Below, in pieces: positions 3,373 through 57,840 of a stretch of DNA of 61,718 nucleotides. The stretch comes from Planctomycetota bacterium (GTDB lineage Bacteria; Planctomycetota; J058). The DNA is taken from positions 210,972 through 272,689 of the forward strand of contig JAMLIC010000006.1 of NCBI GenBank assembly GCA_023954375.1, in the 5' to 3' direction. The stretch's first letter is position 1. Every line of letters starts with the position of its first letter. The translations under genes and the position numbers were made by a program. The notes under the pieces were generated by a model. The model did not search any database. It was not told where the DNA came from and worked only from the letters and a program-made list of their open reading frames with translations.

Positions 3373-5808
3373 CTACGCCACGAGCCGGACCTCGGCCTCG
3401 AGCACGACGCCGCGCGCCTCGCGGACGCGGCGCCGCACCTCGCAGGCGAGGGCCAGGACGTCGTCGACGGTGGCGTCGCCGTCGTTGACGATGAAGTTGG
3501 CGTGCACGGGCGAGACGCGGGCGCCGCCGCGCGAGAGGCCCTTGAGGCCGCAGGCGTCGATCAGGCGGCCCGCGCTGTCGCCGGGCGGGTTCTTGAAGAA
3601 GCAGCCGGCGCTGCGCGCGTCGAGCGGCTGGATCGCGGCCTTGCGGCGCAGGGCCTCCTGGCGCGCGGCCTTGAGGGCGTCGCGGTCGCCGCGCTCGAGC
3701 TCGAGCTCGACCGCGAGCACGTAGGCGCCGTCGAGGTCGGCGCCGCGGTAGCGGAGGCCGAGCGCCGCGCGCGGGAGCCAGCGGGCGACGCCGTCGCGGC
3801 CGAGGGCGCGGACGCGCCGCACGCGGTCGCCGATCGCCCCGGCCCCGGCCGGCCCGCCGGCGTTGCCGGCCAGCGCGCCGCCGATCGTGCCCGGGATCCC
3901 GGCGAAGCGCTCGAGGCCGGCGAGGCCGTGGCGCTCGGCCAGGCGGATCAGGCCCGGGAGCGGCTCGCCCGCGGCGGCGCGCACGACGGGGCCCAGGACC
4001 TCGGCCCCGCGCAGGGCCCGGCAGGAGATCACGGCCGCGTCGACGAGCGGGCTGGCGAAGAGGACGTTCGAGCCGCCGCCGAGCGGCACGACCGGCACGC
4101 CGTGGGCCTGGAGGGCGCGCAGGACGCGCACGGCCTCGGCCTGGGTGCGCGGCTCGGCGAAGAAGCGCGCCCGCCCGCCGGCCTTGATCGTCGTGCGCGG
4201 GCCGAGCGGCTCGCCCGTGCGCACGAGGCCGGGCAGCGCCTCGAGGACCCGCGCCTCGAGCCCCTCGCCGCCGCGGCGGAAGCGGCCGCTGGCCACCTTG
4301 GCCAGCGGGGGGAGCGGCTCGTCGCTGCGGCGCGCCAGGCGCTCGAGGGCCCGGTGCGCGGCGCCGCTGATCCGGCCGGCGCCCATGAACAGGGCCACGT
4401 CGCCCTTCTGCAGCAGGCGCACGGCCGTGCCGATCAGGGCGTCGGGGTCGCCGCCGGGGACGGCCTGCGTCCCGGGTGCGCGGGCGCGCACGGCGCGGGC
4501 GAGGGCGGCCGCGGTGACCGTGCGCACGTCGTCGGGGCGATCGCGGCAGGTGTAGACGTCGGCCACGACGACGCGGTCGGCGCGGGCCAGGGCGTCGACG
4601 AAGCCGTCCCAGTGCTCGCGCGTGCGGCTGGCCTGGTGCGGCTCGAACAGCGCCACGACGCGCCGGCCCGGGTGGCGGGCGCGGGCGGCGTCGATCACGG
4701 CGCGGAGCGCCGTCGGGTGGTGGGCGTAGTCGTCGACGACGAGGACGCCGCCCGGCTCGCCGAGCACGTCGTAGCGGCGGCGGACGCCCGTGAAGCCCTC
4801 GACCGTGGCGGCGGCCTGCTCGGGGGCGACGCCCGCGCACACGGCGGCGGCGATCGCGGCCAGCGCGTTGGCGACGTTGTGGGCGCCCGGGACCGAGAGG
4901 CGGACGCGCGCGCGCGGCCGGCCGTCGAGGGCGAGCGTGAAGCGGCCGAGGCCGTCGTCGTAGGTGACGTCGCGCGCGGCGAGGCGCGCCTCGCCGCCGA
5001 CCGAGAAGGTCATGACGGTCACGTCGGGGCGGGCGTGGCGCACGGTCTCGGCCACGCGCAGCGCGGCCGGCCAGTCGGCCGAGGCGACGAGCGCGCCGCC
5101 CTCCTGCACGCCCGCGGCGAACTCGACGAAGGCAGAGACGATCTCGTCGAGGCCGCCCTGGTAGCAGTCGAGGTGGTCCTCCTCGACGTTGAGGACGACG
5201 GCGCACGCGGGCCGGTAGTGCTTGAACGAGCGGTCGTACTCGCAGGCCTCGAGCACGAGCTCCGGCCCCTGGCCGAGCGCGGCGTTGGCCGGCAGGTCCT
5301 TGGGGGCGCCGCCCACGAGCCAGCTCGGGTCGCGGCCGCAGGCGCGCAGGACGTGCGCCGTGAGCGCCGTCGTCGTCGTCTTGCCGTGGGTGCCGGCGAT
5401 CGCCACGCCGCGCCGGGCGGCGACGAGCGCGCCGAGCGCCTCGGCGTACTTGACCACCGGCACGCCGCGGCCGATCGCGGCCACGAGCTCGGGGTGGTCG
5501 GGCGGCAGCGCCGCCGTCGCGACGAACAGGTCGGCGTCGGCCGGGAGGTTCGCGGCCTCCTGCCCGTAGCGCACCTCGATCCCGGCCGCCTCGACGGCCT
5601 CCGAGAGCGGCCCGCGCGCCTGGTCGGAGCCCAGGACGCGGTGCCCCAGCCCGGCGATCAGGCGCGCCAGGCCGGAGAGGCCGGTGCCGCCGATCCCCGA
5701 GCAGAAGACGACGAGCGGGGCGTCGCCGGCCGGCCGCGCCATGCGCCCGAGCAGCGCGCGCCGACGCGACAGCGTCCCCGAGACCGCCAGGCCAGCGTCC
5801 ACGGTCAT
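3373..5808 (-). CDS. murC/murB: UDP-N-acetylmuramate--L-alanine ligase (MurC) fused in frame to UDP-N-acetylenolpyruvoylglucosamine reductase (MurB); 811 aa with no stop between the domains
   Basis: N-terminal MurC motifs (GIGGTGLSGLA, GTHGKTTTT, DDYAHHP) and C-terminal MurB motifs (GPRTTIKAGGRARFF, GGGSNVLF, SAGCFFKNP) share one open frame. The start may instead be the ATG at 5742. Confidence 0.85.
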   Translation of the reverse strand: MTVDAGLAVSGTLSRRRALLGRMARPAGDAPLVVFCSGIGGTGLSGLARLIAGLGHRVLGSDQARGPLSEAVEAAGIEVRYGQEAANLPADADLFVATAALPPDHPELVAAIGRGVPVVKYAEALGALVAARRGVAIAGTHGKTTTTALTAHVLRACGRDPSWLVGGAPKDLPANAALGQGPELVLEACEYDRSFKHYRPACAVVLNVEEDHLDCYQGGLDEIVSAFVEFAAGVQEGGALVASADWPAALRVAETVRHARPDVTVMTFSVGGEARLAARDVTYDDGLGRFTLALDGRPRARVRLSVPGAHNVANALAAIAAAVCAGVAPEQAAATVEGFTGVRRRYDVLGEPGGVLVVDDYAHHPTALRAVIDAARARHPGRRVVALFEPHQASRTREHWDGFVDALARADRVVVADVYTCRDRPDDVRTVTAAALARAVRARAPGTQAVPGGDPDALIGTAVRLLQKGDVALFMGAGRISGAAHRALERLARRSDEPLPPLAKVASGRFRRGGEGLEARVLEALPGLVRTGEPLGPRTTIKAGGRARFFAEPRTQAEAVRVLRALQAHGVPVVPLGGGSNVLFASPLVDAAVISCRALRGAEVLGPVVRAAAGEPLPGLIRLAERHGLAGLERFAGIPGTIGGALAGNAGGPAGAGAIGDRVRRVRALGRDGVARWLPRAALGLRYRGADLDGAYVLAVELELERGDRDALKAARQEALRRKAAIQPLDARSAGCFFKNPPGDSAGRLIDACGLKGLSRGGARVSPVHANFIVNDGDATVDDVLALACEVRRRVREARGVVLEAEVRLVA

Positions 5809-18900: not shown

Positions 18901-19473
18901 GTGACCACCGTGCGGACTCGCGCTGCAACCTGGCTCCTCCTCCTGGCGGGCTGCGCGGCGGCGCCGACCGCCGCGCCCCCTCGCGACCCGGCGCCCTGGT
19001 CCCTGGGAGCTCGCGGGGCCGACCGCGAGGAGCGCGCCCTCGAGCCGCAGCAGGACGGGGTCTTCGTGGAGGCCCGGATCTGGGCGCTGCGCCAGGTCCG
19101 TGGGCCGGGGCAGGTGGAGGTCTGCGACGACCCACGCCGCGTGCTGCTGGCGGTCGAGCGCCTGTGCGACGTGGTGGCGTACGAGTCCGGCGCCCTGTCG
19201 CTGCTCTTCGTCGCCGGTGGCCTGGCGGCGCCCGGAGAGGACGTGCTGCTCACCTTGACCTCGGGCTGCGGCCTCTGGCCGCTTCACGGCAGCCTCCGTG
19301 TGCGCGTGGACCCGCGGCCAGGCCGCTCGCGCGTCGCGCTGGAGGTCGGCAGCGACGCCGTCAGGGTGGACGCCGACGTGGAGCTCGACCTCGTCCCGGG
19401 GCGGCTGGCGCTGATCTCGGCGCCCGTGCCCGGGGAGGACGCGGCCGTGCTCGTGTTCCTCGCGGCGAGCTGA
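18901..19473 (+). CDS. hypothetical lipoprotein
   Basis: GTG start. LLLLAGCAAAP lipobox. Confidence 0.45.
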   Translation: MTTVRTRAATWLLLLAGCAAAPTAAPPRDPAPWSLGARGADREERALEPQQDGVFVEARIWALRQVRGPGQVEVCDDPRRVLLAVERLCDVVAYESGALSLLFVAGGLAAPGEDVLLTLTSGCGLWPLHGSLRVRVDPRPGRSRVALEVGSDAVRVDADVELDLVPGRLALISAPVPGEDAAVLVFLAAS

Positions 19474-19493
19474 CACCTGCTCAGGCGACGGGT

Positions 19494-20948
19494 CTACGCG
19501 CCCGCCGGCGCGCCGAAGCCGAGGAAGCGGCGCTCGAGCGCGTGGCCGCTCGACGTCAGCCGCTCGAGGGCGGCGCGCAGGCGGGCCGCGTCGATCCGGG
19601 CCAGCCCCTCGCCGTCCACGTCGCCCGAGAGGATGGCGTCGAAGATCGTCTGCTTCATCAGCTCGCGCAGGAACGCCGGCGTGGCGCCCTCGGTCGCCGC
19701 GACGATCGGCTCGAGCGCCGCGTCGTCCACGTGGGCGCGCCGGGCGTAGAGGCGCAGGAGCCTCCTGCGCAGCGCCGCCGACGGGAGCGGGAACTCGAGC
19801 GCCACGTCGACCCGCCCGGGGCGCTGCGCGAGCGCCTCCTCGAGGACGTCCGCGCGGTTGGTGGTGAAGACGAACAGGACCTGCTCGTTCGAGGGCACGC
19901 CGTCGAGCTCGTTGAGGAGCGCGCCGAGGACGCCGCTGCGCTCGCCGTCGCGCCCCGTGGCGACCAGGTCGATGTCCTCGAACAGGAGGAGCGCGGGGGC
20001 GAGCTTGCGCGCGAGCGCGAACGCGCCGCCCACCCGCGCGAGGTCGTTGCCGGTGAGGAGGAGGCTGGTGAAGCCCTGGAGCTGCGAGACGAGCAGGTTG
20101 CACACCATGCTCTTGCCCGTGCCCGGCGGGCCGTGGAGGAGCACGCCGCGCTTGAGGTCCAGGCCGTTGCGCGCCAGCTCCGGGCCCCGGGCCACGTAGT
20201 CGAAGACCTCGCGGCGCAGCCGGGCGAGCAGCTCGTCGGGCAGGATGAGCTGGTCCCACCCGGTCGGCCGGTGCGGGACGATCGTGGCCTCCTTGACCTC
20301 GTCCTTGTAGTCGACGCGCGGCTGGATCAGCCGGCCCCGGAGGACGCTGCGCGCGCGCTCCCACTCGACGAGCGCGCGCACGAAGCGCTCCGCCACGCCG
20401 GGCGCCGCGCCGACCGCCTCGACGCGGAAGGAGGCGTCGAGCGTGTCCTGCGTGAGGAGGAGCAGGGCCACCACCGGGGTGCCCTCGAAGGTCGCGAGGG
20501 CCAGCCCGCGGAGGAGGCCGCGGCGCAGCTCGCCCGGCGCCACCTCGAGCTCGGCGTCGGCCGCGGCGGTCGGCTCGAGGCCGACGAAGTCGCCCAGGGC
20601 GGTGACCCGCGCCGGGCGGAGGACGTCGGCCAGCGTGCGGCGGGCGTAGCTCTCGCCCACGTCGAGGCCGATCACCTCCGCCGAGTGCGCGGCCAGGAAG
20701 TCCGTGACGACCACCGCGACGTTGGTGGCGAGGTACCTGGGGAAGTCGTGCTCGACGACCCGCGGGCCGACCTCGTCCTCGCCGCCGGTCAGGCCCAGGT
20801 GCCGCCGGACCCGCTCGTTGACCGAGGCGCGCACCTTCGCCGCCGACTCGCGCCGGAGCCGGAACCACGCGATCAGGGCCACGGCGCCGACGGCGGCGAC
20901 GAGGGCGAGGGCGAGGCCGACCAGCCCCGCCGCGAGCAGCTCGAGGGC
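19494..20948 (-). CDS. membrane-anchored AAA+ ATPase (classic AAA clade); the true start is uncertain (GTG at 20882, or a non-canonical start right after the upstream TAA)
   Basis: Walker A GPPGTGKS, Walker B LLLFEDID, sensor-1 TTNR, Arg finger RPGRVD. The N-terminal TM helix is complete only if translation begins upstream of the GTG at 20882. Confidence 0.8.
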   Translation of the reverse strand, partial: ALELLAAGLVGLALALVAAVGAVALIAWFRLRRESAAKVRASVNERVRRHLGLTGGEDEVGPRVVEHDFPRYLATNVAVVVTDFLAAHSAEVIGLDVGESYARRTLADVLRPARVTALGDFVGLEPTAAADAELEVAPGELRRGLLRGLALATFEGTPVVALLLLTQDTLDASFRVEAVGAAPGVAERFVRALVEWERARSVLRGRLIQPRVDYKDEVKEATIVPHRPTGWDQLILPDELLARLRREVFDYVARGPELARNGLDLKRGVLLHGPPGTGKSMVCNLLVSQLQGFTSLLLTGNDLARVGGAFALARKLAPALLLFEDIDLVATGRDGERSGVLGALLNELDGVPSNEQVLFVFTTNRADVLEEALAQRPGRVDVALEFPLPSAALRRRLLRLYARRAHVDDAALEPIVAATEGATPAFLRELMKQTIFDAILSGDVDGEGLARIDAARLRAALERLTSSGHALERRFLGFGAPAGA

Positions 20949-20960
20949 GCTCAGGAGGGG

Positions 20961-21083
20961 TTAGGCCTTGGCGGGCTTCGCCTTGGCGAGCGCCTTGATC
21001 TGCTCGTTCAGGCGGTCCTTCTTGCGCTTGTTGTAGGCGGACTTCTTCTTCAGCTTCGTCTGCGTGCGGTACTTGCGGCCCAT
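20961..21083 (-). CDS. 40-aa lysine/arginine-rich small protein (MGRKYRTQTKLKKKSAYNKRKKDRLNEQIKALAKAKPAKA)
   Basis: ATG with a strong AGGAGG RBS 7 nt upstream and GC3-biased codons. It is in the same frame as the downstream AAA+ ATPase, separated only by TAA. Too short for the ORF track. Confidence 0.45.
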   Translation of the reverse strand: MGRKYRTQTKLKKKSAYNKRKKDRLNEQIKALAKAKPAKA

Positions 21084-21159
21084 GGCGGGTCCTCCTGGGA
21101 TGGTGTGGGTCGCCCATTGAGCCAGCCGGGCGGGCGGCTGGCAAGGGGGAGGCTCGCGG

Positions 21160-24100
21160 TCAGCCCTTCACGACCCCGAGCGGCCGGATCCGCGCCACCT
21201 TCTCGGCCAGGCCGCCCTGGTGGACGACGTCGACGACCTGCGCCACGTCCTTGTAGGCCTCGGGCACCTCCTCGACGACGGTCGCGCGCGAGGCCCCCAG
21301 GACGATGATCCCGAGCGTCTCCTCGAGGCGGCGCGTGACGTTCTCGGCGCCGTGGCGGCGCTTGGCCTCGGAGCGCGAGAGGAGGCGTCCGGCCCCGTGG
21401 CAGGCCGACCCGAACGTGTCCTCGGCGCGCGCGCCGCCCTTGAGCACGAACGAGTAGCGGCCCATGTCGCCCGGAATGATCACGGGCTGCCCCAGCGCGC
21501 GGTAGGCCTCGGGCACGAGGGGGTGGCCCGGCGGCAGGGCGCGCGTGGCGCCCTTGCGGTGCAGGAGGAGGCGCTTCGTCTGGCCGTCGACGGGGTGCTC
21601 CTCGAACTTGGCGATGTTGTGGCACACGTCGTAGACGGTGCGCAGCCGCGTCCTGAAGCGGTCCTTGAACACCAGCCGGGCCCAGTGGGTCATCACCTGC
21701 CGGTTCGTAAAGGCGAAGTTGGCCGCCGACGCCATGGCGCCCAGGTAGCGCCTCGCCTCGGGGCTGTCGATCGGCGCGCAGCAGAGCTGCCGGTCGACGA
21801 GCGGGATGTCGTAGGCCGCCGAGGCCGCGAGCATGGCCGAGAGCGAGTCCTCGCACACCTGGTGGCCGAGCCCGCGCGAGCCCGAGTGGATCATGAGCGT
21901 GATCTGCCCGAGCCGCAGGCCGTAGGCCGCGGCGGTCGCCTCGTCGTGGACCTCGTCGACGACGCCGACCTCGGCGAAGTGGTTCCCCGAGCCGAGCGTC
22001 CCCAGCTGGTCGCGCCCGCGCTGCCGCGCGCGGTGGCTCACCGCCGCCGGGTCGGCCCCCGGGATCCGGCCGGTCTCCTCGACGTGGGCGCGGTCGTCGT
22101 CGGTGGCGTAGCCCTGCTCGACCGCCCAGTCGAGCCCGCGCTCGAGCACCTGCGAGAGCGTGCCGTCGTCGAGGTGCAGCTCCGGGCGCGTCGAGCCGAC
22201 GCCCGAGGGGATCGCGTCGAACAGGGCGCGCGTGAGCTCCTTGAGGCGCGGCTTCACGTCCCCGAGGTGCAGGTCGGAGGCGAGGAGGCGGACGCCGCAG
22301 TTGTGCACGACGACGCCCTCGGCGACGAAGTCGTGCGAGGGGTGGTCGACGGTGATGTCGTAGACGCGGTCGACGTCGGCGCGCGGCCGGATCGCGACGA
22401 CCTCGTCCCACACCGCGCCGGAGTCGCCGAGCCCGAAGGTCGCCTCCTCGAGCCACTCGTCGAGGCGCGGGAACCGCTCCGCCACGCGCACCTGCGCGTC
22501 CGGCTGGCCCCCTCGCCGACCGTGGATCGTTCGCTCGACGAACCGCAGGTTCACCGGCGCCGAAGCCCCGAGCGCCGCGTGGATCCGGGCCGCGGACCAC
22601 CCGTGCCGGCGGCGCAGGTCGAGGGCCTGCTCGCGCGTGGCCCGACGCTCGCCCAGCGCGGCCAGCTTGGCGCGCAGGTACCCCACGGCGGCGGCCGCCT
22701 TCCGGGTCCGGCTCGCGTTGTACTCGAAGCCGATGCGCCCCCAGAGCGCGATCAAGTCGTCCGGGGTGGACGGGAAGATCAGGCGCAGCCGGATCGACGT
22801 GCTGCCGTCCGGCGCGTCGTACTCCTCGCGCTCGGAGAGCGTGCAGGGGCGGACGCCGAAGCGCGCGGCCACCGCGCCCACCTGCTCGAGGAACCGACGC
22901 CCGCTGGCGACGTGCGGCTCGCGCTTGTTCTGGCAGAGGACCGGCGCCTGGAAGCACGTCCCCTGCTCGGGCACCGGCGTGGGGGCGCTCAGCTCCGCGC
23001 CGAAGAAGCCGGCGAGGAACAGCCGCTGCTGCCAGCGCGGCGCCTCATCGAGCCACCGGGGCAGGCCCCAGTCCTGGTCGACGCGCCGGCGGGTCGGGAG
23101 TCCCATGGCCGCGAGCAGCAGGGCCAGCCTCTTGCCCAGCGCAAGCGAGTGCTCCGTGGTCGTGAAGGCGCTCGTGCCGTACCGCGTGGCGACGGCGCAC
23201 CGGCGGGGGCGCGAGTGCACCGACGAGACCCGGAACCAGGGGCGCAGGTCCCCGCGCATCCGCTCGAGGTCCTCGGCCGCGCCGTAGGCGACCGCCTTCA
23301 GCGTCGTGCCGGTGGTGAAGATCGTGCCGTCCCCGAGCACGTAGCCGGCGACCTTCAGCAGGACGGGGAGCGCCGGATGGTCGTCCGTCAGCGGGAGGAG
23401 GTCGTCGAGGCGACGGAGCGCCTGCTCGAGTCCGTTGCCGCCGCTGCCCTTCCCGTGCTGGACCGCGACCTCGCGCACCTGGTCGCGCGAGACGATCACA
23501 CGCCCGGCGGGCGGCTCGTAGGGCACCCCCTCGAAGGGGTGCGTCGCCACGCGGTCGCCCACCACGAGGGCGCCGAGGTCCCGCATGCCGGTCGGGGTGA
23601 GGAAGGGATGGTCGTCGGTCGCGACGACCCGCCGTCCGGCGGCGGTCTCGACCTCGAACACCGGGCGGCGCGGGCGGCGCGCGAGGCCCGCCGCCACGGC
23701 GCCGGCCTGGAACTCGCGCCGGTCAAGGTCGAACACGGTCACCGGGTCGCGGACCTGCCCCTCGACGAGGTCGCGGAGCGGGCGCGTGTAGCCCAGCGCG
23801 GAGGTGACGCGGGTGTCGCCGGCGAGGCAGTTGATGTCGAAGCCGATCCCGCCCGGCGTGACCACCCCGCCTGCGTCAGGGTCGAACGCCGCCACGCCGC
23901 CGATCGGGAAGCCGTAGCCCCAGTGAATGTCCGGCATGGCGAACGAGTGGCCGACGATCCCCGGCAGCGTGGCGACGTTGGCGACCTGCTCGAGGCTACG
24001 GTCCTCGCGCAGGTCGGGGAGGAGGTCCTCGCGCGCGTAGACGATCCCGTCCACGTGCATGGCGCCCGTCTTCGGCACGCGCCAGCGGACGTCGTCGATC

Positions 24101-24228
24101 TTCTCCAGCGGCACCGGCCGCCCCTCGTAGGGCGGCGGCGCGGCGGAGGGGCCCGCGCCTCGCGCCTCGCGCTTGCGGGCCTGCTTCTTGGCCACCTGCT
24201 GGCGGCGCTTGCGGTCCTTGCGGCTCAC
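21160..24228 (-). CDS. rtcB: RNA-splicing ligase RtcB, interrupted by a 510-aa intein
   Basis: The exteins join to GFDIN-CGVRLL, the RtcB active-site motif, and other RtcB motifs are present (GSGNHF, HSGSRGLG, CHNIA). GTG start with an AAGGAGGG RBS. Confidence 0.9.
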   Translation of the reverse strand: MSRKDRKRRQQVAKKQARKREARGAGPSAAPPPYEGRPVPLEKIDDVRWRVPKTGAMHVDGIVYAREDLLPDLREDRSLEQVANVATLPGIVGHSFAMPDIHWGYGFPIGGVAAFDPDAGGVVTPGGIGFDINCLAGDTRVTSALGYTRPLRDLVEGQVRDPVTVFDLDRREFQAGAVAAGLARRPRRPVFEVETAAGRRVVATDDHPFLTPTGMRDLGALVVGDRVATHPFEGVPYEPPAGRVIVSRDQVREVAVQHGKGSGGNGLEQALRRLDDLLPLTDDHPALPVLLKVAGYVLGDGTIFTTGTTLKAVAYGAAEDLERMRGDLRPWFRVSSVHSRPRRCAVATRYGTSAFTTTEHSLALGKRLALLLAAMGLPTRRRVDQDWGLPRWLDEAPRWQQRLFLAGFFGAELSAPTPVPEQGTCFQAPVLCQNKREPHVASGRRFLEQVGAVAARFGVRPCTLSEREEYDAPDGSTSIRLRLIFPSTPDDLIALWGRIGFEYNASRTRKAAAAVGYLRAKLAALGERRATREQALDLRRRHGWSAARIHAALGASAPVNLRFVERTIHGRRGGQPDAQVRVAERFPRLDEWLEEATFGLGDSGAVWDEVVAIRPRADVDRVYDITVDHPSHDFVAEGVVVHNCGVRLLASDLHLGDVKPRLKELTRALFDAIPSGVGSTRPELHLDDGTLSQVLERGLDWAVEQGYATDDDRAHVEETGRIPGADPAAVSHRARQRGRDQLGTLGSGNHFAEVGVVDEVHDEATAAAYGLRLGQITLMIHSGSRGLGHQVCEDSLSAMLAASAAYDIPLVDRQLCCAPIDSPEARRYLGAMASAANFAFTNRQVMTHWARLVFKDRFRTRLRTVYDVCHNIAKFEEHPVDGQTKRLLLHRKGATRALPPGHPLVPEAYRALGQPVIIPGDMGRYSFVLKGGARAEDTFGSACHGAGRLLSRSEAKRRHGAENVTRRLEETLGIIVLGASRATVVEEVPEAYKDVAQVVDVVHQGGLAEKVARIRPLGVVKG
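22300..23829 (-). other. full-length intein with a LAGLIDADG homing-endonuclease domain, inserted before the catalytic Cys of RtcB
   Basis: Block A CLAGDTRV, block B TDDHPF, LAGLIDADG-like motifs VAGYVLGDG and LAGFFGAE, C-terminal VVVHN followed by the +1 Cys. Confidence 0.85.
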
Positions 24229-24286
24229 GCGCCCTCCTTGGGTGCGAACAGAAGGCTAACCTGAGGGTCCGACATCCCTGGCGCCC

Positions 24287-24712
24287 TCACAGGTCGAAGA
24301 TCAGCCGGGCGCGGACGACCCGGCCCCGTCGCGCGAGGGCGGCCTGGTGGTGGGTGACCGCCTTGACCGGCCGCGCGATCGGGTGGCGGGCGGGATCGAA
24401 GCGCTCGCCGTGCGCGGTCCCCTCGATGCGCGTCGCCTCGACGCGGGCCGGCGAGAACCTGGCGCAGAGGAAGCGCTCGACCTCGAACAGGTAGAGGAGC
24501 TCGTTGCCGAGCGCCACGAGGGTCGCCGGCGCGTCGATCCCGGTGACGCTGACCTCGCGCGCCTCGCGCTCGGCGACCGTCTCCGGCGCGTCCGTGAGCA
24601 GGGCCAGGAACGCGCGCGCGCAGGCGGCCACGGCGGCGCCCTCGTCGGGCGCCTCGACGTCGACGCCGAAGTCGCCCGTGTGGTCGAAGAAGCGGTACGA
24701 CGGCTCGGCCAC
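24287..24712 (-). CDS. archease (RtcB activator)
   Basis: FFDHTGDFGVDVEA signature. 141 aa, immediately upstream of rtcB. Confidence 0.8.
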   Translation of the reverse strand: MAEPSYRFFDHTGDFGVDVEAPDEGAAVAACARAFLALLTDAPETVAEREAREVSVTGIDAPATLVALGNELLYLFEVERFLCARFSPARVEATRIEGTAHGERFDPARHPIARPVKAVTHHQAALARRGRVVRARLIFDL

Positions 24713-24780
24713 GGCACCCCGGACGCGCGCGCGGGCGGCGCCTGTCTCCCCGCCTGATGGTACCCCCTAGAATGCACCCC

Positions 24781-25911
24781 ATGCAGGTGCGGGTCCTCAC
24801 GGGCGTGGCCGACGTCCCCGAGGCGGCGTGGGACCGCCTCGTGGGCGACGCGTCACCCTTCGTCGAGTGGGCCTACGTGCGCGCCTGCGAGGTCGACTCG
24901 GCCACGCCCGAGCACGGGGTCGAGCCGCGGCACGTGACCGTGTGGCGGGGCGGCGAGCTCGTCGGCGCGGCGCCGCTCTACCTCAAGCACGACGGGCGCG
25001 GCGAGTTCATCTACGACTTCGCCTGGGCCATGGCGGCGCGACGGGCGCGCCTGCCCTACCACCCCAAGCTCGTCTCCATGGCGCCGTTCGCGCCGTTCGA
25101 CGTGCCCCACCTCCTCGTCGCGCCGGGCGACCCCGACCCCGACGCCGTGCGCGCCGCGCTGGTGCAGGGCGTCGAGGACCTCGCCGAGCGCGAGGGCGCC
25201 CACGGCGTCCACTGGCTGTTCACGGGCGACGCGGAGGCGCAGGCGCTGGCGGGCCGCGGCTACGCGCGCCGGCGCACGCTCTCGCTCGTGTGGACCAACC
25301 CCGGCGAGGCCACGTTCGAGGGCTGGCTGGGGCGGCTGCGCAGCAAGGCGCGCGTGCGCACGCGGCGCGAGCTGCGGCGCCTCGACGAGGCCGGCGTCGC
25401 CATCGAGCGCGTCGAGGGCGACGCGGTCACCCCGGACGACGTCGACCTGCTCCGCCGCTACTACGAGGCGACGTGCGAGGCGCACGGGACCGGCAGCGAC
25501 TACCTCAAGCCCGGGACCTGGGACCTCCTCGGGCGCGCCTGGCGCCATCGCCTCGTCCTCTTCTTCGCCCGCGCGGGCGGCCGCCGCGTCGGCGGGTCGC
25601 TCCTCGTGCAGAAGGGCGCCGACCTCTACGGCCGCTACTGGGGCGCCGACGCCGCGCAGCCGTTCCTCTACTTCGCCCTGTGCTTCTACCGGCCGATCGC
25701 CCACGCCCTCGAGCGCGGCCTCCGGCGCGTGCACGCCGGCGCCGGCACGACCTTCCACAAGCACGCCCGCGGCTTCGACCCCGCGCTGATCACCTCGTGG
25801 CACCGCCTGCGCCACCCGGCCCTGCACGAGGCCATCGCCCGCGCGGCCGCGGCGGAGGCCGAGGAGGTCGAGCGCGCCGCCCACCTCCTCGGCCGACCAT
25901 CCCAGGCCTAA
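24781..25911 (+). CDS. GNAT-fold FemAB-like acyltransferase family protein (DUF482-like)
   Basis: 377-384 aa depending on start (ATG at 24757 or 24781), with the conserved HWLF...YWGA...FHKHARGF pattern. Divergent from archease. Confidence 0.5.
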   Translation: MQVRVLTGVADVPEAAWDRLVGDASPFVEWAYVRACEVDSATPEHGVEPRHVTVWRGGELVGAAPLYLKHDGRGEFIYDFAWAMAARRARLPYHPKLVSMAPFAPFDVPHLLVAPGDPDPDAVRAALVQGVEDLAEREGAHGVHWLFTGDAEAQALAGRGYARRRTLSLVWTNPGEATFEGWLGRLRSKARVRTRRELRRLDEAGVAIERVEGDAVTPDDVDLLRRYYEATCEAHGTGSDYLKPGTWDLLGRAWRHRLVLFFARAGGRRVGGSLLVQKGADLYGRYWGADAAQPFLYFALCFYRPIAHALERGLRRVHAGAGTTFHKHARGFDPALITSWHRLRHPALHEAIARAAAAEAEEVERAAHLLGRPSQA

Positions 25912-38502: not shown

Positions 38503-39375
38503 TCACGGCGCGAGCATCGTGACGCGCTCGCGCAGCCCGTCGGGCAGGGCGGCCAGGGCGCGCGCGACGTCGTCCTCGCGGTACTTGAGGCTGAAGTGCT
38601 TGAGCACGATGTGCCGCGCCGCCAGCGCCGCCGGGGCGCGCGCGAAGAGCGCGACGAGCTCGTCGAGGTGGGTGTGCCCGTAGCGCCGCGCCGTGGCCAC
38701 CTCGGTGCCGGGGAGGTGCGTGGCCTCCATGAGCAGCACGTCGCAGTCGCTCACCTCGGGGCGCTGCTCGAGGGTCTCGATCGTGCTGTCGCCGATGTAG
38801 GTCAGGCGCCGCCGCGCCGCCTCGGCGTGGACCGCCTCGCCGCGCCGCACGGCCGCCGAGACCTCGGCGGCCGGCCGCCCCTGCCAGGCGGGCAGGAGGG
38901 CGCGGGCGCGCTCGACGACGGTGTAGCCGCGCGAGGCGATCCGGTGCGTCACGTCGAACGCCTCGACCGTCCGGCCCCGCCCGAGCGCGAGGCGGTCGCC
39001 GGGGCGCACGGGCACGACGACGTCGCCCGCGGCGGCCGGGTCCTTGCCCTCGAGGCGCGCCCAGGCGCGCAAGAGGTCGCGCAGGGCCTCGGCGCTCTCG
39101 GCCGGGCAGTAGATCCGCGGCGGGCGCGCGCCGGTCATCGCGCGCAAGGACAGGTGACGGTGGACGCCGCCGGCGTGGTCCTGGTGGACGTGCGAGAGGA
39201 ACACGTGGCCCAGGCGCGCCGCCTCGACGCCGCAGTGGCCCAGGTCGAAGCAGGCGTCCAGCGCGGGGACGAGGACGTAGGTCGCCAGGCCCGAGATCGA
39301 GAAGGCCTCGAGCTCGAGCCCGGCGAGGGTCAGCGAGACGGGGAGCCCCGGGTTGTGGAGCGGGCGCCAGCGCAT
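38503..39375 (-). CDS. MBL-fold metallo-hydrolase (RNase Z/BN-like HxHxDH)
   Basis: HVHQDHAGG motif and downstream His/Asp ligands. 290 aa. Confidence 0.7.
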   Translation of the reverse strand: MRWRPLHNPGLPVSLTLAGLELEAFSISGLATYVLVPALDACFDLGHCGVEAARLGHVFLSHVHQDHAGGVHRHLSLRAMTGARPPRIYCPAESAEALRDLLRAWARLEGKDPAAAGDVVVPVRPGDRLALGRGRTVEAFDVTHRIASRGYTVVERARALLPAWQGRPAAEVSAAVRRGEAVHAEAARRRLTYIGDSTIETLEQRPEVSDCDVLLMEATHLPGTEVATARRYGHTHLDELVALFARAPAALAARHIVLKHFSLKYREDDVARALAALPDGLRERVTMLAP

Positions 39376-39416
39376 CGGGCGTCGTCGACTCTACCCGGCC
39401 GGCGCGAGGCGGGCCC

Positions 39417-40172
39417 GTGACCGGCTGGGTCGAGGCGAACACGATCTTCCTCACGCTCGCGGGCAGCCGCCTCTACGGCACGGACACGCCCGCCTCCGAC
39501 GTCGACCGGCGCGGGGTGTGCGTCCCGCCGCCCGAGGTCGCGCTCGGGTTCGCGCGGCCGTTCGAGCAGCACCAGGTCCCCGGCGAGGACACGGTGATCT
39601 TCTCCCTGCGGAAGTTCATGGAGCTGGCCGCCGCCTGCAACCCGAACTTCATCGAGCTCCTCTTCGCCCCGGACGACGCCGCGCTCGTCCGCCGCCCGAC
39701 CTGGGAGCGGCTCGTCCGGCGCCGCGACGAGTTCCTCTCGGCCGCGGCCTTCCAGACCTTCACCGGCTACGCCGCCTCGCAGCTGGCGCGGCTCCGCGCC
39801 CGGCGCGCACGGCTCGCCGGGGCGGGCGACGCGGCGGTCGGCCGCGACCCCGCGCGCGCCGCGCTCGAGGCCCGCGCCGGCTACGACACGAAGGACGCAA
39901 TGCACCTCGTGCGCCTCCTGCGCATGGGCCACGAGCTCCTCACCCGCGGCGTCGTCCTCGTGCGGCGGCCGGACGCCGAGGAGCTGCGCGCCGTCCGCGA
40001 CGGCGCGTGGAGCTACGAGCGGCTCATGGGCGAGGTCGATGCGCTCCTCGCCGAGCTCACGGCCGTCCACGCCGAGCGCCGCTACGTGGTCCCCGAGCGC
40101 GTCGACCGCGAGGCGCTCTCGGACCTGTGCGCCGAGCTCCACCTCCAGCACTGGCGCGAGGCCCGCGCCTGA
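39417..40172 (+). CDS. Pol-beta-superfamily nucleotidyltransferase (RlaP-like, RNA-repair associated)
   Basis: LAGSRLYGTDTPASDVDRRGV matches the GS..YG...SDxD nucleotidyltransferase signature. Confidence 0.55.
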   Translation: MTGWVEANTIFLTLAGSRLYGTDTPASDVDRRGVCVPPPEVALGFARPFEQHQVPGEDTVIFSLRKFMELAAACNPNFIELLFAPDDAALVRRPTWERLVRRRDEFLSAAAFQTFTGYAASQLARLRARRARLAGAGDAAVGRDPARAALEARAGYDTKDAMHLVRLLRMGHELLTRGVVLVRRPDAEELRAVRDGAWSYERLMGEVDALLAELTAVHAERRYVVPERVDREALSDLCAELHLQHWREARA

Positions 40173-49532: not shown

Positions 49533-50663
49533 ATGGCCAAGGCAGTCGACATCGGCACCTGCTTCATCGTGGGGGCCCGCCTCGAGCAGGGCAAGGAGGT
49601 GTTCCAGATCGAGCGGGACGCCTTCTTCTCCATGCCGCGCGAGGACTTCGCCGAGGAGATGCTCCACGACGCGGGCGCCAAGTTCGTCATCCGCGGCAAC
49701 GAGCTCTACGTCGTCGGCGAGGACGCGCTCAAGTACTGCATGATCACCGGCAAGCAGGAGTTCTACCGCCGGCCCATGCAGAAGGGCGTCCTCAACCCGG
49801 GCGAGGAGGAGGCGATCCCGCTGCTCGAGCGCCTGATCGAGGGCATCATCGGCAAGCCCGAGCACCCGGGCGAGGTGATCGCCGCCACGATCCCCGCCGC
49901 GCCGCTCGACGCCAACCTCGACGTGACCTTCCACAAGATCGTCGTCGAGCGCTTCCTGAGGAAGCTCGGCTACGACGTGCGGATCCTCAACGAGGCGCTG
50001 GCGATCATCTACGCCGAGTGCCCGCAGGTCGAGGACAACGGCACGAAGGCGCCGTTCTCGGGCGTGGGCGTCTCCTTCGGCGCCGGCATGACGAACCTCG
50101 TCGTCTCGTGGCGCGCCAAGAAGCTGTTCGAGATCTCGGTCGCGCGCGGCGGCGACTGGATCGACCAGAGCGTCTCCAAGGTGCGCAACGTCCCCGTGGG
50201 GAAGGTGACGCACGAGAAGGAGAAGAACCTCGACCTGCGCCGCGTCGACCCGCGCAACGCCCTGCACCTGGGCCTCGAGATCTACTACGACGAGCTGATC
50301 CGGCACGTCCTGCGCGAGTTCCGGGCGCACTTCAAGACGAACCAGACGACGGTCACGAGCCCGCTCGACGTGGTCGTCGCCGGCGGGACCTCGTCGGTGC
50401 CCGGGTTCATCGACCTGTTCAAGCGCATCCTCGAGGAGGAGGGCGCGCCGATCCCGGTCAACGACGTGCGCATGGCCAAGGACCCGCTGCGCACGGTCGC
50501 CAAGGGCGCGCTGGTCGCCGCGGTCTCCATGGAGAAGAAGAAGAAGTCGGACAAGCCGGGCGCGCCGGCGGCGCCGCCGGCCCAGGCGGCGCAGGCCGCG
50601 CCGGCGCCGGCCGCGCCGCCGACGCCCAGCGCGGACGTGATCGACATCGAGGCCGGGGTCTAG
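49533..50663 (+). CDS. actin-like ATPase (ASKHA superfamily; MreB/ParM/actin-type)
   Basis: Phosphate-1 AVDIGTCFIV, phosphate-2 GVSFGAGMTNLVV, adenosine VVAGGTSSVPGF, connect-2 DPLRTVAKGAL. Ala/Pro-rich C-terminal tail. Confidence 0.7.
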   Translation: MAKAVDIGTCFIVGARLEQGKEVFQIERDAFFSMPREDFAEEMLHDAGAKFVIRGNELYVVGEDALKYCMITGKQEFYRRPMQKGVLNPGEEEAIPLLERLIEGIIGKPEHPGEVIAATIPAAPLDANLDVTFHKIVVERFLRKLGYDVRILNEALAIIYAECPQVEDNGTKAPFSGVGVSFGAGMTNLVVSWRAKKLFEISVARGGDWIDQSVSKVRNVPVGKVTHEKEKNLDLRRVDPRNALHLGLEIYYDELIRHVLREFRAHFKTNQTTVTSPLDVVVAGGTSSVPGFIDLFKRILEEEGAPIPVNDVRMAKDPLRTVAKGALVAAVSMEKKKKSDKPGAPAAPPAQAAQAAPAPAAPPTPSADVIDIEAGV

Positions 50664-50694: not shown

Positions 50695-52755
50695 ATGAGC
50701 GCGAACGGCGTGGAGCGCGAGGACGGCGGGCTCGAGGTCATCATCGAGCCCGACGTCGTCCCCCGCGGGACCGTCGACCTGCGGGCGATCATCGGCGGCG
50801 CGCGGGCGGACGGCCGCCCGCGCGAGACGCACACGGCGCGCGGCCGGCGCGAGGCGGTCCTCGCGCAGGTCGCGGCCGCGCACGTCGCGCCGCCGCCGGC
50901 GCTCGTCGCCGCCGCGCCCGTCGTCGCCGCCGCCGTCGCGCCGGCCGTCGCCGCCGAGCCGGAGCCGGAGCCGGCCGAGCCGGAGCCGGCCGAGCCGGCC
51001 CCCGAGGAGGGCCTCCTGGCCGAGGCCCTCCCCGACCTCCCGCCCGAGCCCGCGTCGCCGACGCTCATGGCCCTCGAGGCGGCCGCCAAGGCGCCGATCC
51101 CGCCGCGCCCGGACGCGGCCCTGGCGGCCGACGCCCCCGACCCCCACCCGGAGCCCGAGGCGCCGCCGGTCAGCCTGGGCGAGGTCTCGGCGTTCAGCAC
51201 GCTCGCCAAGCTCCTGGCGCAGCTCCTGGCCCTGCTCCTGTGCCTGATCGCCCTCTACCTGCACCTCATGGGCCTGGCGCCCTGGCAGGAGCAGCGCGGG
51301 GCGGAGCCCGCCGCGATGGCCCCGGCCGCGCCGAGCGGCGAGGCCCCGCGGGTCGACACGGTCCCCGTCACGCCGCCGCCGGCGGCCGAGCCCGAGCCGT
51401 CGCCCGAGCCGGCGCCCGAGCCCGAGCCGGCGCCTCCCGCCGACCCCGCGCCGGAGCCCGAGGTCGAGGCGGCCGCGCCGCCGGCGCCCTCGGCGCCCTC
51501 GCTCGAGGACCTGCGCGCGCTCCTGGCCGAGGCCGAGACCGGCGCCGAGCTGGGCGTCGAGGAGGACGCGCCCGGGCTCCTCGCGCGGATCGAGGGCCTG
51601 CGGGCCCGGGCGGCGCGGCTGATCGACAGGGGCGAGCTCGACGAGGCGGCCGAGGTCCTGCGCGAGCTGATCGGCCTGGCCCCGGAGGACGGCGACGCCT
51701 ACTTCCGCCTGGGCTACGTCCACCACCGCAAGGGCGACCTGGACGAGGCGGCCGCCCGCTACCGCGGCGCCGCCGAGCGCTCGCCGCGCGACCCGCGGCC
51801 CCTGAACAACCTGGGCCTCATCCAGACCGGGCGCGGCGAGCGCGACGCCGCGAAGGCGACCTACGCCAGGGCGCTCGACCTCGCGCCCGACGACCCGGAC
51901 GTGCTGTCGAACCTCGCCGCCCTGCTCGAGGCCAACGCGCCGACCCAGGCCCATCCGCTCTACGAGAAGGCGCTCGAGCGCGACCCGCGCCACGCGCCCG
52001 CCCGCCTGGGCCGCGCCCGCGTGCGCGCCGCGGTCGGCGACCGCCAGGGCGCCCGCGCCGACTACCAGGCGCTGGTCGACCAGGGCGGCCCGCACGCGCA
52101 CCGCGCGCTCGACGGCCTGGGCGTCCTGGCCCGGATCGAGGGCGATGCGCGCGCCGCCGCCGCCCTCCACCGCCAGGCGCTCGAGCGCACGCCCGCCTTC
52201 GCCGAGGCGCGCGTGAACCTCGGGGTCGCGCTCCTCGACCTCGGGCGCGACGACGAGGCCCGCAAGGAGCTCGACGATGCGGTCAAGGCGCTGCCGAGGA
52301 GCCCGCGCGCGTGGCAGGCGCTGGGCGTGGCGCGCTCGCGCCTGGGCATGCTCTACGAGGCCAAGGAGGCCTACGAGGCGGCGATCAAGCTCGACGGCGA
52401 CGACTGGGCCACCCGCTTCGACTACGCGCTCTGCGCCGAGCAGTTCGGCAACATCCTCTTCGCCATGCGCGAGTACGAGCGCTCGATCGCGCTCAACCCG
52501 ACCGCCTGGCAGCCCTACGCCAACCTCGCTCGCCTCTACGTGCGCGGCGACCAGCGGCAGAAGGCGATCGAGCTCCTCACGCGCGGGCTCGAGGTGATGC
52601 CCCGTCAGCCCGACCTGACCTACGCGCTGGCGCACGCGCTGGCGCTCGAGGGGCGCGACGCCGAGGCGCGCGCCCGGCTGCGCCAGTTCCTGGCCGTGGC
52701 GCCGGCGAGCGACCCGCGGGTCGAGGTCGTGCGGCGCGGGCTGGGCGGGTCGTGA
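50695..52755 (+). CDS. TM protein with a Pro/Ala/Glu-rich linker and multiple C-terminal TPR repeats
   Basis: TM helix LLAQLLALLLCLIALYLHLMGL. At least six TPR-like units in the C-terminal half. Confidence 0.6.
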   Translation: MSANGVEREDGGLEVIIEPDVVPRGTVDLRAIIGGARADGRPRETHTARGRREAVLAQVAAAHVAPPPALVAAAPVVAAAVAPAVAAEPEPEPAEPEPAEPAPEEGLLAEALPDLPPEPASPTLMALEAAAKAPIPPRPDAALAADAPDPHPEPEAPPVSLGEVSAFSTLAKLLAQLLALLLCLIALYLHLMGLAPWQEQRGAEPAAMAPAAPSGEAPRVDTVPVTPPPAAEPEPSPEPAPEPEPAPPADPAPEPEVEAAAPPAPSAPSLEDLRALLAEAETGAELGVEEDAPGLLARIEGLRARAARLIDRGELDEAAEVLRELIGLAPEDGDAYFRLGYVHHRKGDLDEAAARYRGAAERSPRDPRPLNNLGLIQTGRGERDAAKATYARALDLAPDDPDVLSNLAALLEANAPTQAHPLYEKALERDPRHAPARLGRARVRAAVGDRQGARADYQALVDQGGPHAHRALDGLGVLARIEGDARAAAALHRQALERTPAFAEARVNLGVALLDLGRDDEARKELDDAVKALPRSPRAWQALGVARSRLGMLYEAKEAYEAAIKLDGDDWATRFDYALCAEQFGNILFAMREYERSIALNPTAWQPYANLARLYVRGDQRQKAIELLTRGLEVMPRQPDLTYALAHALALEGRDAEARARLRQFLAVAPASDPRVEVVRRGLGGS

Positions 52756-57726: not shown

Positions 57727-57840
57727 GCGGGCAGGATACCTCTCGGTCCCCCGGGCGGCACGAGGTCGCCCCGGCCGTGGCGTGCAGGGGACGTCGTGGT
57801 TATCACCACGTTGCAGGATCTCTCTCCCCCCAGGGGGCCG

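What the first reader, a model, noticed from the sequence alone, without database searches (positions are those of the whole stretch)
21160..24712. Intein-containing RtcB RNA ligase with an adjacent archease
A 510-aa intein with both LAGLIDADG motifs sits exactly before the catalytic Cys: DIN | CLAGDTRV...VVVHN | CGVRLL. Splicing would restore the GFDINCGVRLL active site. RtcB inteins are known mainly from archaea, so a bacterial, GC-adapted copy with an intact homing endonuclease is notable.

The activator archease is directly upstream. Other RNA-repair-like genes lie within 15 kb: a RlaP-like nucleotidyltransferase at 39417 and an RNase Z-like MBL hydrolase at 38503.
Basis: partly seen in the sequence, partly recalled or inferred. 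Interest (0 to 1): 0.6.

Follow-up and report, generated by a model that had tools for sequence, protein, structure and literature searches.

The report
Ordinary intein-interrupted bacterial RtcB RNA ligase
A bacterial RNA-ligase gene (rtcB) is interrupted at its active-site cysteine by a 510-residue self-splicing intein that carries a homing endonuclease. The feature is real and looks intact, but it belongs to an intein family already catalogued at this site in many bacteria and archaea.

Summary
ORF 21160-24228 (-) encodes a 1022-aa RtcB precursor. Residues 134-643 (window 22300-23829) are a 510-aa class-1 intein, bounded DIN|C...VVVHN|C. Removing it restores an uninterrupted RtcB that aligns across the junction with Thermus and Pyrococcus RtcB. 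An archease gene (24287-24712, -) lies 58 nt upstream on the same strand.

All splicing residues and both LAGLIDADG motifs are present. The predicted structure (pLDDT 95) has a Hint domain, a LAGLIDADG domain and a helical add-on. The endonuclease part shows purifying selection (dN/dS 0.22, against 0.20 for the C-extein).

The claim that this is notable is not supported:
- A 2015 survey counted 27 bacterial and 10 archaeal RtcB inteins.
- NCBIfam has a model named "intein-containing RtcB family protein".
- The splice site is the Cys98 junction known from P. horikoshii.
- Same-site relatives occur in Planctomycetota, Chloroflexota, Atribacterota, Myxococcota, Omnitrophota and DPANN archaea.
- A whole-protein copy 91% identical (intein 92%) sits in a 90% cluster with an NCBI Planctomycetota MAG protein.
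- The archease-rtcB operon is published and was seen in 47 of 80 related loci.

The RlaP-like and MBL genes exist but lie 14-15 kb away and are not linked to rtcB. Verdict: a new member of a known kind, of low interest.

The parts
24287..24712 (-). Archease gene (141 aa), the RtcB activator and first gene of the archease-rtcB operon
   Evidence: Pfam PF01951 at 104.1 bits, profile 1-136/136. A homologue lies upstream of rtcB in 47 of 80 related loci. It is 91% identical to the upstream gene in L081.
24233..24238 (-). AGGAGG Shine-Dalgarno, with 4 nt between it and the GTG start of rtcB
   Evidence: Read directly from the sequence. It supports the start at 24228. The N-terminal residues 1-35 are matched in L015, L016 and P0034.
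21160..24228 (-). rtcB precursor ORF (1022 aa plus stop)
   Evidence: GC3 is 0.97 and there are no frameshifts.
23830..24228 (-). N-extein, residues 1-133, ending ...GGIGFDIN
   Evidence: Aligns to 2EPG residues 9-109 and to P. horikoshii RtcB up to N97.
22300..23829 (-). The 510-aa intein (protein residues 134-643)
   Evidence: Boundaries. Intein_splicing, intein_Nterm and intein_Cterm models match. AF2 model has pLDDT 95.2. Fold matches to inteins.
23500..23829 (-). N-terminal splicing (Hint) region, intein residues 1-110, with Cys1 (block A) and TDDH at 71-74 (block B)
22717..23370 (-). LAGLIDADG homing-endonuclease core, intein residues 154-371
23323..23352 (-). LAGLIDADG motif 1, VAGYVLGDGT (intein 160-169), acidic residue D167
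   Evidence: D167 is kept in 29 of 30 relatives and G168 in 30 of 30.
22990..23016 (-). LAGLIDADG motif 2, LAGFFGAEL (intein 272-280), acidic residue E279. Conserved K302 follows.
   Evidence: E279 is kept in 31 of 32 relatives and K302 in 32 of 32. Pfam LAGLIDADG_3 gives only 14.8 bits here, below its 22.5 cut-off.
22435..22716 (-). Helical add-on, intein residues 372-465 (long helix 372-409 plus short helices), possibly an HTH DNA-binding module
22300..22434 (-). C-terminal splicing region, intein residues 466-510, with block F (VYDITVD) and block G (VVVHN)
   Evidence: Block F Asp in 28/28 relatives and terminal Asn in 28/28. Penultimate residue is His in 11 and Ser in 16 of 28.
21160..22299 (-). 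C-extein, residues 644-1022 plus stop, beginning with the +1 Cys (CGVRLL)
   Evidence: Aligns to 2EPG 108-487 and P. horikoshii RtcB 97-481. The motifs GSGNHF, HSGSRGLGH, HNIAKFEEH and CHGAGR are conserved.

Best explanation
This is a two-gene archease-rtcB operon of a high-GC bacterium, probably a Planctomycetota. The rtcB gene is interrupted by a canonical class-1 intein carrying a double-motif LAGLIDADG homing endonuclease.

The intein sits between Asn133 and the Cys that, in the mature enzyme, bridges the two active-site metal ions. This Cys is the equivalent of P. horikoshii Cys98.

Inferred mechanism:
1. The 1022-aa precursor cannot build the RtcB active site, because Asp131 (the equivalent of metal ligand Asp95) and the +1 Cys are separated by 510 residues.
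2. Cys1 makes the N-S acyl shift.
3. The +1 Cys attacks the thioester.
4. The terminal Asn510, helped by His509, cyclises and releases the intein.
5. An S-N shift yields a 512-aa RtcB with the GFDINCGVRLL active site restored.
6. Archease then promotes guanylylation and turnover of the ligase.

The freed intein, through its endonuclease domain (D167, E279, K302), would cut intein-free rtcB alleles at the conserved GACATCAAC|TGCGGCGT site and copy itself in by repair. This accounts for the same-site alleles scattered across bacterial and archaeal phyla.

Shown here: the anatomy, the boundaries, residue conservation, the fold and purifying selection. Inferred: splicing and DNA cleavage.
For: - Exact boundaries, and flanks that align across the junction with intein-free RtcB structures.
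- RtcB, intein and archease profile matches.
- All splicing residues are present and nearly invariant in relatives: C1, block B TxxH, block F Asp, terminal Asn and +1 Cys.
- The AF2 model has pLDDT 95.2 and pTM 0.93.
- LAGLIDADG acidic residues are kept in 29/30 and 31/32 relatives, and K302 in 32/32.
- dN/dS against the 90.5%-identical L081 copy is 0.22 for the endonuclease region, 0.20 for the C-extein and 0.057 for the N-terminal splicing region.
- The P. horikoshii RtcB splice junction is Cys98 (PMC4150793). Cys98 bridges both Mn2+ ions (PMC10630183).
- Same-site inteins occur in at least 14 of the top 80 species-representative loci. The closest exteins (66-75% identity) are intein-free.
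- The empty site in those relatives is 42/48 nt identical to the window's spliced junction.
- The archease-rtcB operon is published (PMC3973293) and present in 47 of 80 loci.
Against: - No experiment was done. Splicing and endonuclease activity are inferred from sequence and a predicted structure.
- Pfam LAGLIDADG_3 does not reach its cut-off (14.8 against 22.5 bits).
- NF038162 scores 1025 bits, below its 1150 cut-off.
- The dN/dS rests on one pair of sequences in a genome with GC3 near 0.97, where dS may be distorted.
- The helical region 372-465 gives dN/dS 0.88.
- Full amelioration of the intein's composition, and its presence in both the window and L081, indicate long vertical residence rather than recent homing.
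Confidence: 0.88

Rival explanations
1. The intein splices, but its LAGLIDADG domain is no longer a mobile nuclease. It is kept because the splicing domain needs it to fold, or because it has been domesticated as a DNA- or RNA-binding module, as the LAGLIDADG fold was in WhiA.
For: - The composition is fully ameliorated and the intein is inherited in both the window and L081.
- Pfam LAGLIDADG_3 is below its cut-off.
- The helical add-on shows dN/dS near 0.9.
Against: - The catalytic D167, E279 and K302 are almost invariant across relatives that are only 30-50% identical. This would not be expected for a purely structural role.
- The patchy phyletic distribution, with the closest exteins intein-free, fits continuing gain and loss.
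- One relative, P0029, shows what decay looks like: motifs reduced to GAG and DAA and the intein shortened to 337 aa. The window copy shows none of this.
Confidence: 0.2
2. The intein is a conditional switch. Cys1 and the +1 Cys (the metal-bridging, oxidation-sensitive RtcB cysteine) form a disulfide or otherwise sense redox or metal state. RtcB would then be activated by splicing only under certain stress conditions.
For: - Both junction residues are Cys, and the site is the active-site Cys.
- The equivalent Cys is oxidation-sensitive in archaeal and human RtcB (PMC10630183; PMC12263435 abstract).
- Novikova et al. argue that intein clustering at functional sites may be regulatory (PMC4760082).
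Against: - Nothing in this sequence distinguishes it from any other Cys1/Cys+1 intein.
- Insertion at conserved active sites is explained just as well by homing-endonuclease target conservation.
- The closest relatives do without the intein.
Confidence: 0.08
3. The insertion is a dead remnant and the gene is a non-functional rtcB.
For: None beyond the absence of experimental data.
Against: - The reading frame is intact with GC3 of 0.97.
- All splicing residues are present.
- dN/dS is 0.05-0.23 in both extein and intein.
- An independent assembly (L081) has the same architecture.
Confidence: 0.02

Closest known systems
Pyrococcus horikoshii RtcB (PH1602) intein; spliced extein structure 1UC2 and related entries
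   Same: Same host protein and same insertion site. The published splice junction is Cys98 (PMC4150793). The window's +1 Cys aligns to that residue.
   Different: The host here is bacterial and has 75% GC. Sequence relatedness of the two inteins was not tested. No Thermococcales protein appeared among the intein's hits.
NCBIfam NF038162 'intein-containing RtcB family protein'
   Same: Full-length match (profile 2-961 of 961), 1025 bits, best of all NCBIfam models.
   Different: The score is below the curated cut-off of 1150, so the protein would not be named by this model. It is a divergent member.
Same-site RtcB inteins in bacterial and DPANN MAGs (for example P0034/MCW8140131.1 Planctomycetota, P0002 Planctomycetales, L004 Caldilineales, L001 Atribacterota, L007 Micrarchaeota)
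   Same: Same DIN|C...N|CGVR junction, similar length (458-518 aa), and the same conserved GDG and FGAE LAGLIDADG motifs. The P0034 protein is 91% identical to the window protein overall, and its intein is 92% identical.
   Different: Most relatives end in Ser-Asn. The window copy and a subgroup (11 of 28) end in the canonical His-Asn. Apart from P0034, the best intein identity is only 53%.
Structurally characterised LAGLIDADG inteins: PI-PfuI (1DQ3), PI-PkoII (2CW7/2CW8), TliVMA (7QSS), PI-SceI (1LWS)
   Same: Same two-part architecture: a Hint splicing domain split by a double-motif LAGLIDADG endonuclease, plus an extra DNA-contact region.
   Different: Only 11-18% sequence identity, and different host proteins. 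The add-on here is a helical, HTH-like segment after the endonuclease core, not the PI-PfuI stirrup. This assignment is an inference.
Archease-RtcB 'tRNA splicing operon' (Desai et al. 2014, PMC3973293)
   Same: Archease lies immediately upstream of rtcB on the same strand, as reported for diverse bacteria and archaea and seen in 47 of 80 loci here.
   Different: Nothing of note.

Membership tests
Class-1 intein | Nucleophile Cys/Ser at position 1 (block A) | tested here: met
   Cys134 of the protein is intein Cys1. It is Cys in 21 of 21 relatives.
Class-1 intein | Block B TxxH | tested here: met
   TDDH at intein 71-74. Thr in 21/22 and His in 22/22 relatives.
Class-1 intein | Block F Asp, block G penultimate His and terminal Asn, and a +1 Cys/Ser/Thr | tested here: met
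   VYDITVD at 489-495, then VVVHN|C. Terminal Asn in 28/28 and block F Asp in 28/28 relatives.
Class-1 intein | Hint fold | tested here: met
Class-1 intein | Removal restores an uninterrupted host protein | tested here: met
   The two exteins abut at 2EPG residues 108/109 and at P. horikoshii RtcB N97/C98.
Class-1 intein | Protein splicing actually occurs | not testable with these tools
   Needs expression followed by SDS-PAGE and mass spectrometry.
LAGLIDADG homing endonuclease (double-motif) | Two LAGLIDADG helices, each ending in an acidic residue | tested here: met
   VAGYVLGDG (D167) and LAGFFGAEL (E279), kept in 29/30 and 31/32 relatives.
LAGLIDADG homing endonuclease (double-motif) | Profile match above the curated threshold (Pfam LAGLIDADG_3) | tested here: not met
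   14.8 bits against a cut-off of 22.5, E 0.034. Two relatives, P0025 and P0030, do carry PF14528.
LAGLIDADG homing endonuclease (double-motif) | Alpha-beta-beta-alpha-beta-beta-alpha pseudo-dimer fold | tested here: met
LAGLIDADG homing endonuclease (double-motif) | Site-specific DNA cleavage of the intein-free allele | not testable with these tools
   The only indirect support is dN/dS of 0.22 and a conserved empty site in relatives.
RtcB 3'-phosphate/5'-OH RNA ligase | RtcB profile match and conserved metal- and GMP-binding motifs | tested here: met
   Pfam PF01139 at 535 bits. E 4e-159 to 2EPG. The motifs DINC, GSGNHF, HSGSRGLGH, HNIAKFEEH and CHGAGR are conserved in the alignment.
NCBIfam NF038162 intein-containing RtcB | Score at or above the curated cut-off (1150 bits) | tested here: not met
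   1025.4 bits. The match is full length and is the best NCBIfam model, but below cut-off.
Archease | Archease profile match | tested here: met
   Pfam PF01951 at 104 bits against a cut-off of 25, full length. NCBIfam PRK00407 gives 64 bits, below its 126 cut-off.
Archease-RtcB operon | Adjacent, co-oriented genes, conserved in relatives | tested here: met
   A 58-nt gap on the same strand. Archease lies upstream of rtcB in 47 of 80 loci.
Extended RNA-repair gene island (RtcB with RlaP / RNase Z-like) | Operonic or immediate linkage of RlaP or MBL genes to rtcB | tested here: not met
   The two genes are 14-15 kb away, with unrelated genes between them and rtcB. The MBL scores 65 bits against an RNase Z cut-off of 293. 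Whether relatives keep these genes near rtcB was not examined.

The most novel reading that the evidence does not exclude
The intein is kept not only as a selfish element but as a redox- or metal-sensing conditional switch. The Cys1/Cys+1 pair at the oxidation-sensitive, metal-bridging cysteine of RtcB would gate maturation of the RNA-repair ligase. This would give bacteria a post-translational control of RtcB in place of the RtcR-type transcriptional control.
Probability: 0.06. Interest if true: 0.55.

Novelty: new member of a known kind. Interest (0 to 1): 0.14.

Why it matters
It matters little beyond correct annotation. The gene should be called an intein-containing rtcB with an upstream archease, and the mature ligase is 512 aa rather than 1022 aa.

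The copy may have modest practical value. It is a compositionally extreme (75% GC) intein with apparently intact splicing and endonuclease residues, and its predicted target site is highly conserved. It could serve as a new LAGLIDADG scaffold, or as a test case for how inteins persist at the RtcB active-site cysteine across bacteria and archaea.

It does not open a new question.

Tried and rejected
- An exact-sequence look-up of the 1022-aa protein found no record. The source genome is therefore not in that collection.
- A tblastn of the intein against 50,697 phage records found nothing. There is no evidence of a phage source.
- Pfam LAGLIDADG_3 on the isolated intein stayed below threshold. 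The endonuclease assignment therefore rests on motifs, family conservation and the predicted fold.
- The promoter scan of 20700-25000 found no sigma-70-like site. The four terminator-like hits are all on the + strand, opposite to the operon, and three of the four lie inside coding sequence. They are uninformative for the operon.
- No tRNA genes and no Rfam families were found in the window. No RNA substrate gene is linked to the ligase.
- I considered whether the RlaP and MBL genes form an RNA-repair island with rtcB. I rejected this on distance and on the intervening unrelated genes.
- I considered an assembly artefact or chimera. I rejected it because an independent assembly (L081, SRR12908354) has the same archease-rtcB-intein structure at 90.5% nt identity.
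Full report

Yes, exactly as described. The window has about 75% GC. Frames with GC3 above 0.9 mark the real genes.

ORF 21160-24228 on the minus strand encodes 1022 aa. It is preceded by an AGGAGG Shine-Dalgarno, with 4 nt between it and the GTG start. CLAGDTRV begins at residue 134 and VVVHN ends at residue 643. The insert is therefore exactly 510 aa, window 22300-23829.

Pfam finds RtcB (535 bits) in two stretches separated by an Intein_splicing match of 47 bits against a cut-off of 35.8. The NCBIfam intein N- and C-terminal models are both above cut-off.

Against solved structures, residues 36-134 and 643-1022 align to T. thermophilus TTHA1785 (2EPG) residues 9-109 and 108-487, and to P. 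horikoshii RtcB at N97/C98. The conserved motifs GSGNHF, HSGSRGLGH, HNIAKFEEH and CHGAGR are intact. Excising the 510 residues restores ...GGIGFDIN-CGVRLL... with nothing lost or gained.

The 141-aa ORF at 24287-24712 (-) is an archease (Pfam 104 bits, full length). It lies 58 nt upstream of rtcB on the same strand.

**2. Anatomy of the intein**

All class-1 splicing residues are present:
- Cys1.
- Block B TDDH at intein residues 71-74.
- Block F VYDITVD at 489-495.
- Block G VVVHN.
- A +1 Cys.

The two LAGLIDADG motifs are VAGYVLGDGT (160-169, acidic D167) and LAGFFGAEL (272-280, acidic E279).

An AlphaFold2 model built on 33 homologues is confident, with pLDDT 95.2 and pTM 0.93. Fold comparisons support three parts:

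Foldseek's best PDB hits are likewise TliVMA, PI-PfuI, PI-TkoII, PhoVMA and PI-SceI.

Pfam LAGLIDADG_3 itself stays below threshold at 14.8 against 22.5 bits. The endonuclease call therefore rests on motifs, conservation and the predicted fold.

**3. Is the endonuclease degenerate?**

The evidence says no.

In an alignment with 33 relatives that are mostly 30-55% identical, key residues are nearly invariant:

| Residue | Conserved in relatives |
|---|---|
| D167 | 29/30 |
| G168 | 30/30 |
| E279 | 31/32 |
| K302 | 32/32 |

The endonuclease core is as conserved family-wide as the splicing regions. Mean top-residue frequency is 0.59 for the core, against 0.54 for the N-terminal and 0.65 for the C-terminal splicing region.

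One relative, P0029, shows what decay looks like. Its motifs are reduced to GAG and DAA and its intein is shortened to 337 aa. The window copy shows none of this.

A close relative was found: the intein of P0034 is 92% identical, and the whole protein is 91% identical. Its DNA was recovered as L081, which is 90.5% identical in nucleotides across archease plus rtcB. Nei-Gojobori dN/dS between the two copies:

| Region | dN/dS |
|---|---|
| N-terminal splicing region | 0.057 |
| Linker plus endonuclease (intein 111-371) | 0.22 |
| C-extein | 0.20 |
| Helical add-on (90 codons, dS 0.076, noisy) | 0.88 |

The endonuclease is thus constrained about as much as the ligase itself.

Two caveats apply. 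This is a single pair of sequences, and codon bias is extreme (GC3 about 0.97).

**4. How common is this, and where?**

The intein alone retrieves only RtcB-hosted relatives in the word-indexed search. These come from Planctomycetota, Anaerolineae/Chloroflexi, Myxococcota, Omnitrophota, Sulfomarinibacteraceae and Gemmataceae, and from Hydrothermarchaeaceae, Micrarchaeota and Anstonellales archaea.

An exhaustive HMMER pass over 1.84 billion 50%-identity representatives gives 119 clusters at E<=1e-30 and 350 at E<=1e-10.

Among one-genome-per-species contigs, at least 14 of the top 80 RtcB loci carry an intein at the same DIN|C junction:
- Bacteria: Atribacterota L001, Planctomycetaceae L002, Gemmataceae L003, Caldilineales L004, Gemmatales L005 and an unclassified bacterium L018.
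- DPANN archaea: L006-L011, L021 and L038.

The closest exteins are all intein-free. They are 66-75% identical and come from Planctomycetota, Sandaracinaceae, Polyangiaceae and Acidobacteria MAGs. The intein-bearing loci have exteins only 50-62% identical.

The empty site in those close relatives is 42/48 nt identical to the window's spliced junction.

This patchy, same-site distribution is the classical signature of a homing intein.

The 90% cluster of P0034 contains NCBI MCW8140131.1, annotated as "RtcB family protein, partial [Planctomycetota bacterium]". The window probably comes from a related planctomycete. That is an inference from MAG labels.

**5. Comparison with what is known**

- **Insertion site.** It is the one already described. 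[quoted passage not shown] Cys98 bridges both Mn2+ ions (PMC10630183).
- **Bacterial RtcB inteins.** These are not rare. [quoted passage not shown]
- **NCBIfam.** It curates NF038162, "intein-containing RtcB family protein". The window protein matches this model full length at 1025 bits, just under the 1150 cut-off.
- **Archease-rtcB operon.** It is published for diverse bacteria and archaea (PMC3973293). It recurs in 47 of the 80 loci examined.

**6. The wider 'RNA repair' context**

These two genes are a divergent pair 14-15 kb from rtcB. The genes between them and rtcB include a FemAB-like gene, EF-G, a radical-SAM protein, an aminotransferase and a MarR/DUF1579 regulator. I find no evidence of functional linkage.

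**7. Mechanism, rivals and verdict**

The most likely reading (confidence about 0.88 for the intein and splicing part, lower for nuclease activity) is as follows. The precursor cannot form the RtcB metal site until the intein excises by the standard four-step class-1 pathway. The mature 512-aa ligase then works with archease. The released intein is a LAGLIDADG homing endonuclease that targets intein-free rtcB alleles.

Rival readings:
- A retained but non-mobile endonuclease domain (about 0.2).
- A redox- or metal-conditional splicing switch at the oxidation-sensitive Cys (about 0.06-0.08).
- A dead gene (about 0.02).

Nothing here lies outside known kinds. It is a new, well-preserved member of a catalogued intein allele family, and its interest is low.

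Noticed in passing
window 49533-50663 (+): A 376-aa ORF matches Pfam PF25216 Volactin, an archaeal actin-homologue family, over the full profile (1-321 of 321, 238 bits). NCBIfam gives only faint MamK and BeeR actin-like hits. Local GC dips to 0.68 in a 75% GC window. An actin-like protein of this family in a bacterial-looking genome may deserve its own look.
   Followed up: partly
window 3373-5808 (-): An 811-aa ORF fuses a MurC-type Mur ligase (three Mur ligase domains) to MurB (FAD_binding_4 plus MurB_C) in one reading frame.
   Followed up: no
L081 3679-6912 compared with window 19000-21159: The related contig L081 shares archease plus intein-bearing rtcB at 90.5% nt identity. The similarity ends exactly at the rtcB stop codon. 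Downstream, L081 has DUF6386 and DUF2203 genes, whereas the window has an AAA ATPase. No part of that L081 flank aligns colinearly with the window's flank; the only other blastn hit from it is a 150-nt, 71% match at window 50858-50997. This means either a local rearrangement or movement of the operon as a cassette.
   Followed up: partly
window 24124-24228 (-), RtcB residues 1-35: RtcB carries a strongly basic N-terminal tail (MSRKDRKRRQQVAKKQARKREARG...) ahead of the conserved domain. It is conserved in P0034 and matched in the closest intein-free relatives L015 and L016. It may be an RNA-binding extension.
   Followed up: no
window 22435-22716 (-), intein residues 372-465: A helical add-on follows the LAGLIDADG core. 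It has weak HTH-like similarity. Its pairwise dN/dS is 0.88, against 0.22 for the core. It nevertheless contains family-wide conserved positions, Y384 and K388.
   Followed up: partly
relatives (for example L001-L005, P0006, P0007): Most same-site RtcB inteins end in Ser-Asn (16 of 28) rather than the canonical His-Asn (11 of 28, including the window copy). The family therefore tolerates loss of the penultimate His.
   Followed up: no
P0029 (847 aa, JGI metagenome): This same-site RtcB intein is shortened to 337 aa. Its LAGLIDADG motifs have decayed to GAG and DAA. It is a natural example of endonuclease loss in this family.
   Followed up: no
window 19494-20882 (-): A 462-aa AAA+ ATPase lies 277 nt downstream of rtcB on the same strand. 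Its best NCBIfam similarities are generic (PAN, FtsH, CDC48). A faint match to the anti-phage ATPase IteA scores 59.8 bits against a cut-off of 510. It is absent from the L081 context.
   Followed up: no
window 38503-40172: A divergent gene pair: an MBL-fold hydrolase (-) and a RlaP-family nucleotidyltransferase (+), with starts 41 nt apart. The two may work together, but they are not linked to rtcB.
   Followed up: partly
window 55678-58773 (-): A 1031-aa protein combines a Ser/Thr protein kinase domain with a C-terminal FGE-sulfatase domain.
   Followed up: no
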